Below, one piece after another: positions 30,901-39,900 of a stretch of DNA of 64,000 bases (positions are counted from its first letter, which is position 1; each line of letters begins with the position of its first letter). Made by a program: the position numbers. Source of the stretch: a plasmid. The stretch lies in the NCBI RefSeq assembly GCF_988243305.1, contig NZ_OZ547137.1, one strand, 5' to 3'.

Positions 30901-33900
30901 TGGGGACCACGCCGGTGATCATGCCATTAGTAAATGAACCAAAGTATTTGCCGGTACCTGGCCAGAAGGTATGCAGTACCGCCCCCAGAAACAGGGGGAC
31001 CAGCATCATTCCTCCCGGAATTTTTTCAACTGTTTTTTTGATATTCATTATCGTCCCTTTTTAATGTCAGATACGGCCAGTCAGAGCACCATGATGGCTT
31101 CAATTTCAATAACAGCCCCCTGCGGCAGGGCGGCGATACCCAACGTAGCCCTGGCGGGGTACGGTGTCGAAAAGTATTCCGACATAATGGCGTTAAATCG
31201 CGGGAACATGTTCACGTCGGTCAGATAGGCATTCAGCTTCACAATATCCCTATCACTCCCTCCTGCGGCCTCTGCCACCGACAGCAAATTTTTAAACGCC
31301 TGACGGGCCTGTTCATCGAAATCTGTTGAGACCACTTGCATGGTATGCGGGTCAAAACCGACCTGACCGGCGAGATAAATGGTTTCCCCGGCTTTCACCG
31401 CCTGAGATAATGCCCCACCGGGGGCAGGAGCCCCGGTGGTATAAATGATGTCTTTTTTCATGATGTGCCTCCTGTCCTTTTGCGGTTACAGACCGAACAA
31501 TTTGTCTAGGCAGTCTGCCTGGTCGGCTGTTAACTGGCCGTTATGATTCCGTGAGACCGGCGTCATGTAGCCATACTTTCTGGAAATGGCGGTTTTGATC
31601 GTACTGACAAAATCATCACCAATGGCATATATCCCGGAAAGTCGCCCAATTTCTTTGTGTAATCCGGCGACTTCATTGAGGTCGCCGGCCCGATAGGCCC
31701 GCATAATTTGGGCAAAAAGCTCCGGCACCACATTATTCAGTCCGGAAAGAACTCCGGCGCCTCCGTTCATCAGATTGGGTACAAAGTACTCATCAAAACC
31801 GGCGAATACGGCAAAATCTTTTCTCAGCGGTGTGACCGCGTTGACGATGGCCCGGGTGTGAGACGCACAGTCCACAGTATCTTTGATGCCAATAAACCGC
31901 GGGCAGCTTTCCGCCAGCATTCTGACAAGGTGAGCATCCACATCACATCCGGTTCTGGCCGGGAAGTTATAGATAAACCAGTCACCGGCAAGTTTACGGT
32001 CAAGACTGCGGAAATAGCTAAGTAACTGACGGGATGTCTGGGCGTAGTAATACTGTGGCAGTACCATTACTGCGTCATAGCCACTGTCATAGGCGGCATC
32101 AGCCAGATAAAGCATGTCCTCTTCAACGGTAGATGAAATATGGGCAATCAAAGGGAGGTCACTCATTTTCCGGGCTTCCAGGATGAGCATTGCCCGTTCG
32201 CGGACGCTCATTGTGGCAAATTCCCCGATGGTACCTGATAGCAGAATGCCGTTGATGCCGGAATCAGAAAGGCGTGCCATATGTTTTTCCAGCCCCGTGA
32301 GGTCTATCTGACCGCTGTCATCCAGAGGAATGACGGAAGGGCAGACTGCCCCTGAAAACTTCATTGTCTGATTCATATTATTTGTTCCTTTTGCGTGGTA
32401 TCAGCGTCATGCCTGCTGATACCCGCCCCGGCCTTTACGGAAGAAGGATGGATATCAGTAGTCCAAACACCAATATAGTGATTTAGTAATCACTATATTG
32501 GTGTTTGGACTGACTGGGAAATCATCTTTATAAGAACTGTGCGTGAGTTCAAGAATTCATTCGTGTCGTTCCGGTGAACTCATATTGACAGGTCAATTGG
32601 CAACTGCGTCAGGTTACCAAGGGAAGCGGTTGAGCGTCTTTATAGCGACGATCGGCACGCAAGGTCATCATAAATGCCAGGGCGGATGCTCTGCCGGATG
32701 GCGTTAGCAGGACATTTTTTTCAGCCAAGCGCGCTGCTGCGGCCATTGCGACGCCTGCATCAGCGGCAACCAGATCAACTGTCTGGAAGGCTCGGTGCCG
32801 ACCATTCTCAACCGCGGCGGCTTCGCCAATAAGCTGCGTGCCGACTGGCAGTGGGTGATCGGCATCGGCGGCCTCGGCCATATCGCCATTAAGCTGCTGC
32901 GGGCGATGGGCGCCGATCGCGTAGTCAATAGCCGCGATCCTGAAGCCTTAAAAGTGCTGGCCGGGCAGTTTGACCTGAGCATCAACACCGTGGCGGTGGA
33001 TCTTGACTGGCAGCCGTACTTCGAAGCCCTGTCCTAGGGCGGCAACTTCCACACCGTCGACGCGGTGATGAAGCCGTTCCCGGTACCGGCCTTTACCCTT
33101 ATCGGCGACGACTGCAGCATCTCCGGCTCGGCGATCGGTAACCCATCCGAACTGCGCACGCTGAGGAAGTTCGCCGGACGCAGCAAAGTGGCTCCGACCA
33201 CCGAGCTGTTCCCGATGTCGCAAATTAACGAAGCGTTGAAACACGTTCGCGAAGGCAAAGCCCGCTACCGCGCGGTGCTGAAAGCCGACTTATGATGGTT
33301 CTCCTCCACCGGGCGGCCCGCTCGCCCGGCGTTTTCCCCGTTGCTTCATCAAACCATCGTTTCCCCGTCATGCCTCTGTAATCATAGCTTCCCACAATTA
33401 GGGCTTCGATAAATGGCTGAACGAGATGTGCGTAACCATGAGAAAGACCTGGCTTCCCTGGCTGATCCTGTCGCCTTCCCTGCTGTTTTTACTGCTGTTT
33501 ACCTGGTTTCCGCTGGGGCGTTCGGTGTATGACAGCCTGTTTGATACCCGCATGGCCAACGCGCAATACGTCGGGCTGGATAACTTTGCCCGCCTGTTTG
33601 CCGATAACGTCTTCTGGCAGTCGCTGGGCAATAACCTACTCTATATCCTGCTGACGGTGATGCCCGGGGTGACGCTCGCCCTGCTGCTGGCGGTCGCCCT
33701 GAGCGAGAACCATCGCGTCAACCGTTGGCTGCGCACCGCCTTCTTCTTCCCGATGATTATCCCGATGGTCAGCGCCGCTGCACTGTGGCTGTTTATCTTT
33801 ATGCCCGGCCTCGGCCTGCTCGACCACTATCTGGCAAAGCTGTTCGGGCCGATGAACAACAACTGGCTGGGGCGCAGCAACAGCGCGCTGCTGGCCCTGG

Positions 33901-36900: not shown

Positions 36901-39900
36901 CAACGAGAACTGATGGGAGCCGATTATCTGCTCCACGTCAGCACCCCGATCGGCACCCTGCGCTTTAGCCGCCGCAACCGCGGCAAGGTGCCGGAGAAAG
37001 ACGAGTCGCTACCGATCGGCTTCTCGCCTGCCGATGTGCATCTTTTTCATGCTGAGACCCAGCATAATTTACAGATGGAGACAGATCATGTTTAAACCCC
37101 TCACCGCCCTGACGGTTGGGCTCAGCCTTGCCCTGAGCGGCGCGGCGCTGGCGAAAGAGAAAATAGACTTTATGTTCCCGGCGCCGGTGGACGGCAAGCT
37201 GACCATGGAGATGACCCGCGTCATTAAGCAATTCAACGACTCGCAGCAGGATGTCGAAGTGCGCGGAATCTTCACCGGCAACTACGACACCACCAAGATC
37301 AAAGCCGAATCGGCGCAGAAGGCCGGCCAGCCACCGGCGCTGGTGATCATGTCCGCCAACTTCACCACCGATCTGGCGCTGAAGGATGAGATCCTGCCGA
37401 TGGATGAGCTGTTTAAATATGGCGATCAAAAGGCCGGCAATTTTCTGCAAACGGAATTCTGGCCCGCGATGCATAAGAACGCCCAGGTGATGGGCACCAC
37501 CTATGCGATCCCGTTCCATAACTCGACGCCGCTCCTCTACTACAACAAGACGATGTTCGATCGGGCCGGGATCCAACAGCCGCCGCAGACCTGGGCCGAG
37601 TTGCTGGCCGATGCCAAAAAGCTGACCGACGAGAGCACAGGCCAGTGGGGGATCATGCTGCCGTCGACCAACGACGACTTCGGCGGCTGGATCTTCTCGG
37701 CGCTGGTGCGCGCCAACGGCGGAAAATACTTTAACGAAGACTATCCGGGCGAGGTCTATTACAACTCGCCGACCACAATCGGCGCCCTGCGCTTCTGGCA
37801 GGATCTGATCTACAAAGACAAGGTGATGCCGTCCGGGGTGCTGAACTCGAAACAGATCAGCGCCGCGTTCTTCTCCGGCAAGCTCGGGATGGCGATGCTC
37901 AGCACCGGCGCGCTGGGCTTTATGCGTGAGAACAGCAAAGACTTTGAGCTTGGGGTAGCTATGCTGCCAGCCAAAGAGCAGCGCGCAGTGCCGATCGGCG
38001 GCGCCAGCCTCGTAAGTTTTAAAGGCATCAGCGAGGCGCAGAAGAAAGCAGCGTATCGGTTCCTGACCTATCTGGTGAGCCCCGAGGTGAACGGCGCATG
38101 GAGCCGCTTCACCGGCTACTTCTCGCCGCGCAAGGCGTCATACGATACGCCAGAGATGAAGGCCTATCTGCAGCAGGATCCGCGGGCGGCGATTGCGCTT
38201 GAGCAACTGAAGTACGCCCATCCATGGTACTCCACCTGGGAGACCGTCGCCGTGCGTAAGGCGATGGAGAACCAGCTGGCGGCGGTGGTCAACGATGCCA
38301 AAGTAAGGCCGGAAGCCGCGGTACAGGCGGCGCAGAAGGAAGCTGACGCGCTAATGAAACCCTATGTGGATAAGACCGCGTTGTCGGAAGTGAAGTGACG
38401 CGTTACCCGTCATCGTCACCCTCATCCTGGCCCTCTCCCTGAGGGCTGTCTCTTGATCAGATCTCCTGATCAAGAGACTTCATCACCAGGTAACCCTCAA
38501 CCATATCCTGAAGTCTGAACCAGCCATCCCACATAACTACCCAACCGGGGCGGCCTGTGCGTTTGCTGTCATACCATCGCCCCAGTTTCGCCAGTTTCAG
38601 ACAGGCCCATTTCAGTGTCGGCGTCTGTGACGGAAGCGGTTTTCCTTCCAGCTTAACCCACAGCAATTTCCACTCTGTCGGCGCCAGTATTTTCTCACAG
38701 CTGTCATTTTGTGTTTCTTCACTGATACCTCCCTGCCGCAGGCCCAGCACCCGTACCGCTATAAAGGGGTTTGGGGAGCAATGGAACAGTAACGCCGTTA
38801 AGAGGTTAATTAAAATAGCCAATTATCTATTAATCAATAAATTATACATCTTCATTGAACGCCCTCAGCTCACCCTTACTGACTGATTCCGGCACTATAA
38901 ATGAATAGCGCCCTTGCATATTAATATGCCCGCACTGTAATGGTGACAGTTTCTCAACGTCTGAATCCAGGACCGGGTACCCCTCACGCCTGAGCTGCTG
39001 AATTGCTGCATCCATGTAAATAGTGTTCCACAGAACAATAATATTGAGCGCCAGACCTGAACCGCCCCGGAAATCCTGGAGACTAAACTCCCTGAGAAAG
39101 AGGTAAACAGGATGACTAAAAATACTCGTTTTTCCCCCGAAGTCCGTCAACGGGCAGTTCGTATGGTTCTGGAAAGTCAGGGCGAATATGACTCACAATG
39201 GGCGGCAATTTGTTCCATTGCTCCAAAGACTGGCTGTACGCCGGAGACTCTGCGTGTCTGGGTTCGCCAGTATGAGCGGGATACCGGGGGCGGAGATGGA
39301 GGGCTCACCAGTGCTGAACGTCAGCGTCTGAAAGAGCTGGAACGTGAAAATCGTGAACTGCGCCGCAGCAACAATATCCTTCGCCAGGCTTCCGCTTATT
39401 TTGCGAAGGCGGAGTTCGACCGCCTCTGGAAAAAGTGATGGCACTGCTGGATAAGCTGCGTGAGCAGTACGGGGTCAGACCGGTATGCAGTGAACTGCAT
39501 ATTGCCCCGTCAACGTATTACCACTGTCAGCAACAGAGACATCATCCTGATAAACGCAGTGCACATGCACAGCGCGATGACTGGCTGAAGAGAGAGATAC
39601 AGCGCGTATACGATGAAAATCATCAGGTGTACGGTGTGCGTAAAGTCTGGCGTCAGTTGTTACGGGAAGGAATCAGGGTGGCCAGATGTACAGTGGCGCG
39701 CCTCATGGCGGTTATGGGACTTGCCGGTGTTCTCCGGGGTAAAAAGGTCCGCACTACCGTCAGCCGGAAAACCGTTGCCGCAGGTGACCGCGTAAACCGT
39801 CAGTGCGTGGCAGAACGTCCTGACCAGCTGTGGGTGGCTGATTTTACTTACGTCAGCACATGGCAGGTCTTCGTCTATAGTGGCGTTCATCATTGATGTA

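What the first reader, a model, noticed from the sequence alone, without database searches (positions are those of the whole stretch)
32700..38445. GC-rich Enterobacter/Klebsiella-type gpdQ plus ABC-transporter operon captured on the plasmid and bounded by an IS50-like end
GpdQ is near-identical to the Enterobacter aerogenes enzyme as recalled, and the operon (two permeases, gpdQ, ATPase, binding protein) is visibly more GC-rich than the surrounding DNA. The ORF track shows the typical artefact of long antisense ORFs on a GC-rich strand. The segment ends 47 bp after the binding-protein stop at the IS50-like terminus (38446). On its left it includes an alcohol-dehydrogenase remnant with an amber codon. 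This looks like a chromosomal fragment of another genus mobilised onto this replicon, conferring organophosphate/glycerophosphodiester utilisation.
Basis: partly seen in the sequence, partly recalled or inferred. Interest (0 to 1): 0.45.

Follow-up and report, generated by a model that had tools for sequence, protein, structure and literature searches.

The report
Klebsiella phosphodiester-scavenging operon on E. coli plasmid
A 5.7-kb GC-rich block on this E. coli virulence plasmid is a piece of Klebsiella pneumoniae-type chromosome carrying an intact five-gene operon for importing and splitting phosphodiesters; it is real and foreign, but it is an already catalogued passenger of hundreds of IncF plasmids.

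Summary
Window 32729-38445 is 60% GC (rest of window 48%; GC3 0.78-0.86 against 0.55-0.59 in neighbouring genes). It holds a decayed Zn-alcohol-dehydrogenase remnant and an intact operon: permease, permease, GpdQ, ATPase, binding protein. It ends exactly where a 19/19 IS50-type inside end begins (38446).

- The closest native relatives are K. pneumoniae-complex chromosomes (95.1-95.8% nt; GpdQ 267/274), not the 'E. aerogenes' enzyme (257/274; about 90% nt).
- No donor at 99% or better was found.
- Klebsiella DNA starts at 32729, not 32700. The GC-rich 32633-32735 is an unrelated scrap of a BREX pglZ gene.
- The left junction is illegitimate recombination, not an IS end.

All plasmid copies are at least 99.8% identical (202 PLSDB plasmids, including pEK499; 206 of 5,426 complete E. 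coli genomes). That indicates one capture followed by spread.

A phased, cross-genus-conserved tandem Pho box upstream suggests induction by phosphate starvation. This is inferred.

The module is already annotated in RefSeq as GpdQ. Low novelty, modest interest.

The parts
32633..32735 (-). About 100-bp internal scrap of a BREX-1 pglZ gene. It is GC-rich but unrelated to the operon and lies between the plasmid-type DNA and the ADH remnant.
   Evidence: 93-95% identical to chromosomal pglZ of many E. coli. It maps inside the 2.6-kb gene. It joins the ADH within an imperfect 14-bp match, GCGCGCTGCTGTGG / GCGCGCAGCTGCGG.
32729..33295 (+). Zn-dependent alcohol dehydrogenase pseudogene. It is 5'-truncated, has 117-bp and 60-bp internal deletions (after 32860 and around 32901-32916), and has TAG at 33035-33037.
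   Evidence: Alignment to intact 339-aa native genes. PGAP annotates it as 'zinc-binding dehydrogenase; internal stop; incomplete'. Private changes are 10 nonsynonymous to 4 synonymous, at 3.7% density.
33309..33335 (+). Terminator-like hairpin (CCGGGCG-loop-CGCCCGG, then TTTT) after the ADH stop codon.
   Evidence: Read from the sequence. Conserved in Klebsiella and Raoultella loci. It was not picked up by the consensus terminator scan.
33343..33398 (+). Candidate PhoB-dependent promoter: four heptamers in 11-bp phase (33343 GCTTCAT, 33354 CCATCGT, 33365 CCGTCAT, 33376 CTGTAAT) and a -10-like CACAAT at 33393-33398. There is no -35.
   Evidence: It is the only match to CTGTCATN4CTGTCAT (up to 2 mismatches) in 64 kb. 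The phased block is conserved from Klebsiella to Brenneria and Rahnella. No sigma-70 consensus promoter lies upstream.
33438..34304 (+). ABC transporter permease 1 (UgpA-like). The conserved ATG is at 33438; PGAP uses a plasmid-specific upstream ATG at 33426.
   Evidence: The best NCBIfam hit is UgpA at 153 bits, below the 335-bit cut-off. Pfam BPD_transp_1. Start-codon alignment.
34294..35181 (+). ABC transporter permease 2 (UgpE-like). It overlaps permease 1 by 11 bp.
   Evidence: The best NCBIfam hit is UgpE at 90 bits, below the 297-bit cut-off. Pfam BPD_transp_1.
35192..36016 (+). gpdQ: a cytoplasmic binuclear metallophosphodiesterase of 274 aa.
   Evidence: 257/274 identical to PDB 2DXL/3D03 GpdQ over the full length. 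267/274 identical to K. pneumoniae. D8, H10, D50, N80, H156, H195 and H197 are all present. RefSeq names it 'glycerophosphodiester phosphodiesterase GpdQ'.
36022..37095 (+). ABC transporter ATPase (UgpC/MalK-like, with a C-terminal TOBE/OB domain).
   Evidence: NCBIfam UgpC subfamily at 420.8 bits against a 432-bit cut-off. Pfam ABC_tran, OB_MalK and TOBE_2.
37088..38398 (+). Periplasmic substrate-binding protein (UgpB-like) with an N-terminal signal-peptide-like sequence. It overlaps the ATPase gene by 8 bp.
   Evidence: The best NCBIfam hit is UgpB at 159 bits, below the 411-bit cut-off. The nearest solved structures are UgpB of E. coli and M. tuberculosis, E about 1e-30.
38399..38445 (+). 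47-bp donor-derived tail downstream of the operon, cut by the IS insertion.
   Evidence: 89-94% identical to the sequence after the binding-protein gene in K. pneumoniae-complex chromosomes. Homology stops at 38445.
38446..38765 (-). 320-bp remnant of an IS50-type (IS4-family) element: inside end at 38446-38464 plus the transposase C-terminus. It is truncated by a Tn3-family remnant.
   Evidence: Exact 19-bp inside end. The stop codon lies within the end. 95% identical to a full-length 1,564-bp element whose other end is CTGTCTCTTATACACAAGT and which encodes a 457-aa transposase. PGAP calls it 'IS4 family transposase, incomplete'.
63912..64000 (-). Start of a second copy of the same IS50-type element, in the same orientation. 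It runs off the end of the window.
   Evidence: 88/89 identical to 38446-38534.

Best explanation
Window 32729-38445 is a fragment of a Klebsiella chromosome. Its closest native relatives are in the K. pneumoniae species complex. It was captured once onto an enterobacterial plasmid and has since spread, almost unchanged, on E. coli IncF and pAA-type plasmids.

The fragment carries its own promoter and an intact five-gene operon. A UgpB-like periplasmic binding protein, two permeases and a UgpC-like ATPase would import phosphodiesters (glycerophosphodiesters and possibly simple dialkyl phosphates). The cytoplasmic binuclear metalloenzyme GpdQ would then hydrolyse them, releasing phosphate-yielding products. 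This parallels E. coli ugpBAEC-ugpQ, but with an unrelated hydrolase fold.

Expression is probably switched on by PhoB under phosphate starvation, through a tandem Pho box that replaces the -35 element.

The right boundary is the inside end of an IS50-type element, oriented as the right-hand IS of a Tn5-like composite transposon (inside end facing the cargo). Capture as the central cargo of such a transposon is therefore the most likely route. The left-hand IS and the 5' part of the ADH were later lost by illegitimate recombination, which left a pglZ scrap.

Shown: composition, boundaries, homology, gene integrity, conservation of catalytic residues, distribution.
Inferred: substrate range, PhoB control, the composite-transposon route.
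For: Composition and GC3.

Origin:
- Native context and 95.1-95.8% nt identity to K. pneumoniae, K. variicola, K. quasipneumoniae and Klebsiella sp., with homology ending exactly at 38445.
- One of these chromosomes is identified as K. pneumoniae in PMC12463934.
- Only about 90% identity to the K. aerogenes-type allele and 87-88% to Raoultella and the K. oxytoca group.

Single capture: all plasmid copies are at least 99.8% identical and share the same left flank.

Function:
- GpdQ 93.8-97.4% identical to characterised or native enzymes, with all seven metal ligands.
- Ugp-like best hits for all four transporter parts.
- On the plasmid branch, coding changes occur at 1.35% density, against 3.7% in the ADH pseudogene, and are 36 synonymous to 31 nonsynonymous. 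This is consistent with continued purifying selection on the operon.
- GpdQ supports growth of E. coli on dimethyl phosphate-type compounds when expressed (PMC9371700).

Regulation: the Pho box is the sole match in the window, lies 56-95 bp upstream of the start codon, and is phased and conserved across genera. There is no sigma-70 -35.

IS end: exact inside end, transposase stop codon within it, and a full-length relative with an outside-end-like terminus.
Against: - No native allele closer than 96% was found. I looked in species representatives, named cluster members, K. pneumoniae-complex loci and ten native metagenome copies. The donor is therefore not identified.
- The plasmid allele has a terminal branch 4-10 times longer than any sampled Klebsiella lineage.
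- All four transporter proteins score below the NCBIfam equivalog cut-offs for Ugp, so the substrate is not established.
- The Pho-box match by itself is not significant: 0.5 expected per window, and 39% of shuffles give at least one. The distal box is weaker in the plasmid allele than in Klebsiella.
- There is no left-hand IS copy, no outside end and no target duplication in the window. No plasmid keeps the 5' part of the ADH. The composite-transposon route is therefore conjecture.
- E. coli already has ugp and glpQ, so any benefit may be redundant.
Confidence: 0.8

Rival explanations
1. The donor was Klebsiella (Enterobacter) aerogenes or an Enterobacter species, as the first reader proposed from the resemblance to the crystallised GpdQ.
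For: GpdQ is 257/274 identical to PDB 2DXL/3D03, labelled E. aerogenes. A cluster member named K. aerogenes has the same operon and chromosomal context.
Against: The K. aerogenes-labelled locus is only 90.4% identical in nucleotides, and the MAG nearest the crystallised enzyme only 90.2%. The K. pneumoniae complex is 95.1-95.8% identical. GpdQ is 267/274 identical to K. pneumoniae. The 47-bp tail is alignable only to K. pneumoniae-complex loci. The window shares 77 derived sites with the whole complex relative to these outgroups.
Confidence: 0.04
2. The 4-5% divergence from every native allele accumulated after capture. On this view the segment has lived on mobile DNA for a very long time, with the ADH already dead, rather than coming recently from an unsampled species.
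For: 105 private changes on the plasmid branch, against 9-26 for each Klebsiella lineage. The complex's own stem after the split has only 0-4 changes. The ADH remnant shows a neutral-like pattern along that branch: 10 nonsynonymous to 4 synonymous, at 2.7 times the density of the genes, Fisher p=0.036 against the other genes. Nothing closer turned up in a heavily sequenced genus.
Against: Only about 20 native alleles out of thousands were compared. K. africana, K. quasivariicola and K. quasipneumoniae subsp. quasipneumoniae were not explicitly sampled. All plasmid copies are at least 99.8% identical, so no intermediate plasmid-borne forms are seen. The GC-to-AT excess on the branch (91:7) is matched by the Klebsiella controls (96:11), so there is no specific amelioration signal. 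Counts are small.
Confidence: 0.25
3. The segment reached the plasmid without any transposon, through the same kind of illegitimate or short-homology recombination that made the left junction. The IS50-type element would then have inserted next to it, before or after, by coincidence.
For: The left junction lies in a 14-bp imperfect match. Both ADH deletions are flanked by short direct repeats. The whole region is a patchwork of IS3, Tn3, IS4, IS481 and IS30 remnants. There is no second IS end flanking the segment.
Against: Homology to Klebsiella stops at the very base before the inside end. The inside end faces the cargo, as in Tn5 (structure of Tn5 recalled from memory). A second copy of the same IS in the window again has its inside end against a metabolic gene block.
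Confidence: 0.3
4. The operon is a silent or decaying passenger with no function in E. coli.
For: The adjacent ADH is a pseudogene. The ATPase shows 10 nonsynonymous to 2 synonymous private changes (Fisher p=0.0085). The distal Pho-box heptamer is degraded. E. coli has its own ugp and glpQ systems (established knowledge).
Against: All five reading frames are intact and the same length as native orthologues. The metal ligands are intact. Coding changes are 2.7 times sparser than in the ADH pseudogene. The operon is retained nearly unchanged in 202 plasmids and 206 complete E. coli genomes. The exact GpdQ protein is listed in 13,602 index blocks of the assembly collection.
Confidence: 0.15

Closest known systems
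GpdQ of Enterobacter (Klebsiella) aerogenes (PDB 2DXL, 2DXN, 2ZO9, 2ZOA, 3D03)
   Same: 274 aa and alignable end to end. 93.8% identical. All seven metal-binding residues are present. Pfam Metallophos. Native versions sit in the same operon, between two permeases and an ATPase.
   Different: 17 substitutions. The plasmid protein is closer to the K. pneumoniae orthologue (7 substitutions). It is plasmid-borne in E. coli rather than chromosomal.
E. coli ugpBAECQ (Pho-regulated glycerol-3-phosphate and glycerophosphodiester uptake, with the cytoplasmic diesterase UgpQ)
   Same: The same logic: a binding-protein-dependent ABC importer plus a cytoplasmic phosphodiesterase in one operon, with an upstream Pho-box-like promoter. 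All four transporter proteins have Ugp proteins as their best family hits.
   Different: Gene order is A-E-Q-C-B rather than B-A-E-C-Q. The hydrolase is a metallophosphoesterase (GpdQ) rather than a GDPD-fold enzyme; the UgpQ fold is stated from established knowledge. All four transporter proteins fall below the Ugp equivalog or subfamily cut-offs, so they are paralogues rather than orthologues.
Native ADH-gpdQ locus of the K. pneumoniae species complex
   Same: The same genes, order, promoter block and 47-bp downstream tail. 95.1-95.8% nt identity across 5.5 kb.
   Different: The native locus has an intact 339-aa ADH and lies between SulP/carbonic anhydrase genes and iol genes. The plasmid copy has a dead ADH, an IS50-type end on the right, 105 private substitutions and altered Pho-box heptamers.
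IS50 / Tn5
   Same: The inside end is identical to the 19-bp IS50 inside end as recalled, with the transposase stop codon within it. A full-length relative has an outside end differing at one base from the IS50 outside end as recalled. The inside end faces the cargo, as in Tn5.
   Different: The C-terminal transposase sequence looks clearly diverged from my recollection of Tn5 Tnp (not computed). The relative encodes 457 aa in 1,564 bp. Only 320 bp survive here, and there is no partner copy on the other side of the cargo.

Membership tests
GpdQ (binuclear metallophosphodiesterase) | Full-length high similarity to the structurally and biochemically characterised enzyme | tested here: met
   E=5e-181, residues 1-274 aligned to 1-274, 257/274 identical.
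GpdQ (binuclear metallophosphodiesterase) | Seven metal ligands (Asp8, His10, Asp50, Asn80, His156, His195, His197; residue list recalled from the GpdQ structure papers) | tested here: met
   All seven are present at those positions.
GpdQ (binuclear metallophosphodiesterase) | Phosphodiesterase activity on glycerophosphodiesters and dialkyl phosphates | not testable with these tools
   Activity is reported for the E. aerogenes enzyme (PMC9371700). It has not been measured for this variant.
Ugp transporter (UgpB/A/E/C orthologues) | Scores above the NCBIfam equivalog or subfamily cut-offs | tested here: not met
   UgpA 153 against 335, UgpE 90 against 297, UgpC 421 against 432, UgpB 159 against 411 bits. 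Ugp models are the best hits but fall below threshold, so these proteins are Ugp-like paralogues.
Binding-protein-dependent ABC importer (CUT1-type architecture) | Two BPD_transp_1 permeases, one ABC ATPase with a MalK-type C-terminal domain, and one SBP_bac_1 binding protein, all in one operon | tested here: met
   Pfam assignments on the identical proteins. Overlapping or closely spaced genes.
Pho regulon promoter | Pho box (two or more CTGTCAT-like heptamers at 11-bp spacing) in place of a -35, about 10 bp upstream of a -10 | tested here: inconclusive
   Four phased heptamers (4, 4, 6 and 6 of 7 matches) and CACAAT 10 bp downstream. The arrangement is conserved across genera. It is the sole match in the window, but 0.5 matches are expected by chance. 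PhoB binding and induction were not tested.
IS50-type insertion sequence (IS4 family) | 19-bp terminal inverted repeat of IS50 type, and a DDE transposase reading towards the inside end | tested here: met
   19/19 inside end. A C-terminal transposase ORF ends inside it. PGAP calls it 'IS4 family transposase'. A full-length relative has both ends.
Tn5-like composite transposon | Cargo flanked by two inverted IS copies with inside ends facing inward, bounded by 9-bp target duplications | tested here: not met
   Only the right-hand copy is present. No inverted inside end or outside end occurs anywhere in the window. No less-decayed form exists in PLSDB. Past membership remains possible but is not demonstrable.

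The most novel reading that the evidence does not exclude
The operon is not a recent pick-up. On this reading it has been carried on mobile DNA for a long time, with a dead ADH, a long private branch and no native allele within 4%. During that time its promoter was re-tuned: the proximal Pho box improved from 10/14 to 12/14 and the distal one weakened. It would give E. coli lineages such as ST131 and enteroaggregative strains a phosphate-starvation-induced ability to use phosphodiesters beyond the reach of their own ugp/glpQ systems, for example dialkyl phosphates from organophosphate breakdown, and this would contribute measurably to their fitness.
Probability: 0.12. Interest if true: 0.45.

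Novelty: already known. Interest (0 to 1): 0.2.

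Why it matters
This is a clear example of a chromosomal nutrient-scavenging operon moved between genera, from Klebsiella to E. coli, on plasmids that also carry virulence and resistance genes. Carriers include pEK499-type plasmids and the pAA-type plasmid of this window.

If the operon is expressed under phosphate starvation, it would widen the range of organic phosphorus sources available to these strains. 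It would also add to the non-resistance cargo that may help such plasmids persist.

However, the genes are of known families, the module is already present and annotated in hundreds of database records, and no new mechanism is implied.

Tried and rejected
1. Amelioration. 90 of 90 strictly polarised fixed differences were derived on the plasmid branch, and 78 of them were GC to AT, which looked like post-transfer AT drift. The control showed the same bias in the private changes of every Klebsiella lineage: 96:11 pooled, against 91:7. Rejected as a specific signal.

2. Donor search, none closer than 96%:
- The species-representative scan gave at most 93% aa and 90% nt, and missed the K. pneumoniae complex even though the pattern peptides are present in its GpdQ.
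- Named cluster members from K. variicola, K. quasipneumoniae, K. aerogenes and Klebsiella sp. are all 96-97% aa and 90-95.8% nt.
- A metagenome scan for undeleted ADH copies found ten native copies, all 92-96%.

3. P0007, from a 'K. quasipneumoniae MAG' and 99.5% identical to the binding protein, turned out to lie on a plasmid-type contig.

4. L055's second copy seemed to share the ADH truncation point, but an 11-N scaffold gap sits there. It still led me to the K. pneumoniae loci.

5. A search for a left-hand IS end or outside end in the window found none.

6. A search for a plasmid keeping the 5' part of the ADH found only K. pneumoniae records.

7. The idea that the pglZ scrap came from a BREX island next to the native locus: no fetched Klebsiella flank contains pglZ. 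Unsupported.

8. Literature. There is nothing on plasmid-borne gpdQ in E. coli in the searchable library. The original GpdQ cloning paper is not held.

9. The consensus promoter and terminator scan added nothing beyond the absence of a sigma-70 promoter upstream of the operon.

Full report
**Observation**

The block is real.
- A 1-kb GC profile shows 0.58-0.63 across 33-38 kb, against about 0.43-0.55 elsewhere. A 200-bp profile places the rise near 32600-32650 and the fall just after 38400.
- Window 32633-38445 is 60.3% GC, against 47.9% for the rest. None of 466 other windows of the same length exceeds 53.2%.
- Third-codon-position GC of the five genes is 0.78-0.86, against 0.55-0.59 for the three genes immediately to the left.

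**Genes**

RefSeq annotation of an identical plasmid stretch gives two carbohydrate-type ABC permeases, a phosphodiesterase (named gpdQ in newer records), an ABC ATPase and a substrate-binding protein. These are preceded by an incomplete 'zinc-binding dehydrogenase' with an internal stop.

The genes overlap by 11 and 8 bp or are 5-10 bp apart, as expected for one operon.

GpdQ aligns end to end with the crystallised 'E. aerogenes' GpdQ at E=5e-181. It is 257/274 identical and keeps Asp8, His10, Asp50, Asn80, His156, His195 and His197.

The four transporter proteins have UgpA, UgpE, UgpC and UgpB as their best curated-family hits, but all fall below the cut-offs. The nearest solved structures to the binding protein are UgpB proteins at E about 1e-30. 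The system is therefore Ugp-like in architecture but not orthologous to Ugp, and its substrate is not established.

**Right boundary**

- The binding-protein gene stops at 38398.
- After a 47-bp tail, 38446-38464 reads CTGTCTCTTGATCAGATCT, matching the IS50 inside end as I recall it. It is a 19/19 match with none expected by chance.
- A transposase C-terminus on the minus strand ends within it.
- The remnant runs to 38765 and is followed by a Tn3-family remnant and an IS3-family element.
- A full-length relative, 95% identical, lies on an E. fergusonii plasmid. It is 1,564 bp long, has the same inside end, has CTGTCTCTTATACACAAGT at the other end, and encodes a 457-aa transposase.
- A second copy begins at 63912 in the same orientation (88/89 identical).

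**Left boundary**

Homology to native loci starts at 32729, inside the ADH gene.

Compared with intact 339-aa genes, the remnant lacks about the first 95 codons. It has a 117-bp and a 60-bp internal deletion, each flanked by short direct repeats, and reads TAG at 33035-33037 where native genes read TAC or TGG.

The GC-rich 100 bp to its left (32633-32735) is an internal scrap of a BREX-1 pglZ gene on the minus strand. It is 93-95% identical to E. coli chromosomal pglZ. It joins the ADH within an imperfect 14-bp match.

This scrap explains why 885 E. coli records gave 90-95% partial hits in the first search.

**Origin**

A scan of one genome per species found the operon, with the ADH upstream, in Klebsiella, Raoultella, Trabulsiella, Kosakonia and others. 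None exceeded 93% aa or 90% nt.

Looking up the exact GpdQ protein showed it is extremely common (13,602 index blocks). Wherever the full operon was present it had the plasmid-type left flank (IclR, KdgT, Rid, DHDPS-family), even where it sits in chromosomes; in three of the ten places shown the operon was cut short by IS elements or other DNA.

One such locus had a second, 95%-identical copy next to a scaffold gap. Tracing its permease led to 5.1-5.6-Mb chromosomes with a conserved context: carbonic anhydrase, SulP, intact ADH, the operon, then iol genes. One of these chromosomes, CP129541.1, is K. pneumoniae MAKM-3381 according to PMC12463934.

These loci are 95.1-95.7% identical to the window, and the homology runs to 38445, the base before the IS end. 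The donor-derived segment is therefore 32729-38445.

Loci reached through named cluster members gave the following picture:

| Comparison | Nucleotide identity |
|---|---|
| K. pneumoniae complex members to one another | 97-98.6% |
| Window to each member of the complex | 95.1-95.8% |
| Window to the K. aerogenes-labelled allele | about 90% |
| Window to Raoultella and K. michiganensis | 88.6% |

Relative to these outgroups:
- the window shares 77 derived sites with the whole complex;
- the complex has only 0-4 derived sites that the window lacks;
- the window has 105 private changes, against 9-26 for each Klebsiella lineage.

Ten native copies from metagenomes were no closer, at 92-96%.

So the source is the K. 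pneumoniae complex or its immediate sister, but the actual donor allele was not found.

**Spread**

All plasmid copies are at least 99.8% identical: 202 PLSDB plasmids with at least 80% coverage, including pEK499, and 206 of 5,426 complete E. coli genomes. This indicates one capture.

The pEK499-type copies lack 32744-32813, so the window's form is the less deleted one.

The window itself is a pAA-type E. coli plasmid. It has agg fimbrial genes, parM, ccdAB and a RepB-family initiator.

**Selection**

On the plasmid branch:
- Coding changes occur at 1.35% density, with 36 synonymous to 31 nonsynonymous.
- The ADH remnant has 3.7% density, with 4 synonymous to 10 nonsynonymous.
- The intergenic region has 6.3% density.

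This fits a functional operon next to a long-dead pseudogene.

The strong GC-to-AT bias on that branch is matched by the Klebsiella controls, so it is not evidence of amelioration.

**Regulation**

Upstream of the first permease, four heptamers lie in exact 11-bp phase (33343, 33354, 33365, 33376), followed 10 bp later by CACAAT. The block is conserved from Klebsiella to Brenneria and Rahnella, where it is nearer the CTGTCAT consensus.

It is the only match to the Pho-box pattern in the window, but 0.5 matches are expected by chance. No sigma-70 consensus promoter is present.

PhoB control is therefore a well-supported inference, not a demonstration.

Four plasmid-private changes fall in the heptamers. 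They strengthen the proximal box (10/14 to 12/14) and weaken the distal one (10/14 to 8/14).

**Mechanism of capture**

The inside end faces the cargo, as in Tn5 (structure recalled from memory). A Tn5-like composite transposon is thus the most economical route.

However, no partner IS, outside end or target duplication survives, and no less-decayed form exists in PLSDB. Illegitimate recombination alone cannot be excluded.

**Verdict**

The module is already catalogued and annotated. I found no paper on it in the searchable library. Novelty is low and interest is modest.

Noticed in passing
window 32633-32735 (-): An internal scrap of about 100 bp from a BREX-1 pglZ gene sits between the plasmid-type DNA and the ADH remnant. 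It accounts for hundreds of partial E. coli chromosome hits. Its source (E. coli or the donor) is unknown.
   Followed up: partly
window 63912-64000: A second copy of the same IS50-type element (88/89 identical), in the same orientation. Its inside end again abuts a metabolic block (MFS transporter, LacI-family regulator, nucleoside hydrolase, MgtC/SapB). This hints that the IS was repeatedly associated with cargo capture.
   Followed up: partly
window 32460-32511: A perfect 24-bp inverted repeat with a 4-nt spacer (AGTCCAAACACCAATATAGTGATT / AATCACTATATTGGTGTTTGGACT), upstream of the divergent DHDPS-family/Rid/KdgT operon. It may be an operator for the adjacent IclR-family regulator.
   Followed up: no
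window 36022-37095: On the plasmid branch the ATPase gene has 10 nonsynonymous but only 2 synonymous private changes (Fisher p=0.0085 against the other four genes). Identity to Klebsiella dips to 89-94% in the 36847-37143 window, around the 3' end of this gene. K. pneumoniae itself has two forms there (356 aa plus a 140-bp spacer, or 357 aa overlapping). This could reflect relaxed constraint or a recombination hotspot.
   Followed up: partly
window 33354-33382 and 33399-33400: Plasmid-private substitutions fall inside the Pho-box heptamers. The proximal box moves closer to consensus and the distal one further away. Two more changes lie just downstream of the -10 (TT instead of CC). This may be regulatory re-tuning in the new host.
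   Followed up: partly
window 33426: A plasmid-private ACG-to-ATG change creates an in-frame upstream ATG, which PGAP uses as the permease start. The conserved start is at 33438.
   Followed up: yes
window 32744-32813: pEK499-type plasmids lack this 70-78 bp of the ADH remnant, so two left-junction variants of the module circulate. The window carries the longer one, presumably the older.
   Followed up: partly
L059-L066, L071-L073 (K. pneumoniae-complex loci), about 2-6 kb upstream of the ADH: The native locus lies next to an integrase-associated variable region. In different strains this holds type I restriction-modification, DndB/TGT-type or other defence genes, so it looks like a defence-island hotspot.
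   Followed up: no
(tool behaviour): The species-representative genome scan returned no K. pneumoniae-complex locus, although five of the six search peptides are present in K. pneumoniae GpdQ. Negative results from that scan should not be read as absence.
   Followed up: yes
window 1856-8866 and 22916-23984: The window carries aggDCBA (aggregative adherence fimbria I; 98% identical to p266917_2_01). Its RepB-family initiator is only 79% identical to that plasmid's, so the replicon is a mosaic pAA-type plasmid.
   Followed up: partly
window 39435-40326: The IS3-family element to the right of the module has its orfB split into two ORFs (39435-39896 and 39880-40326). In the near-identical reference plasmid it is annotated as intact with a programmed frameshift.
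   Followed up: no
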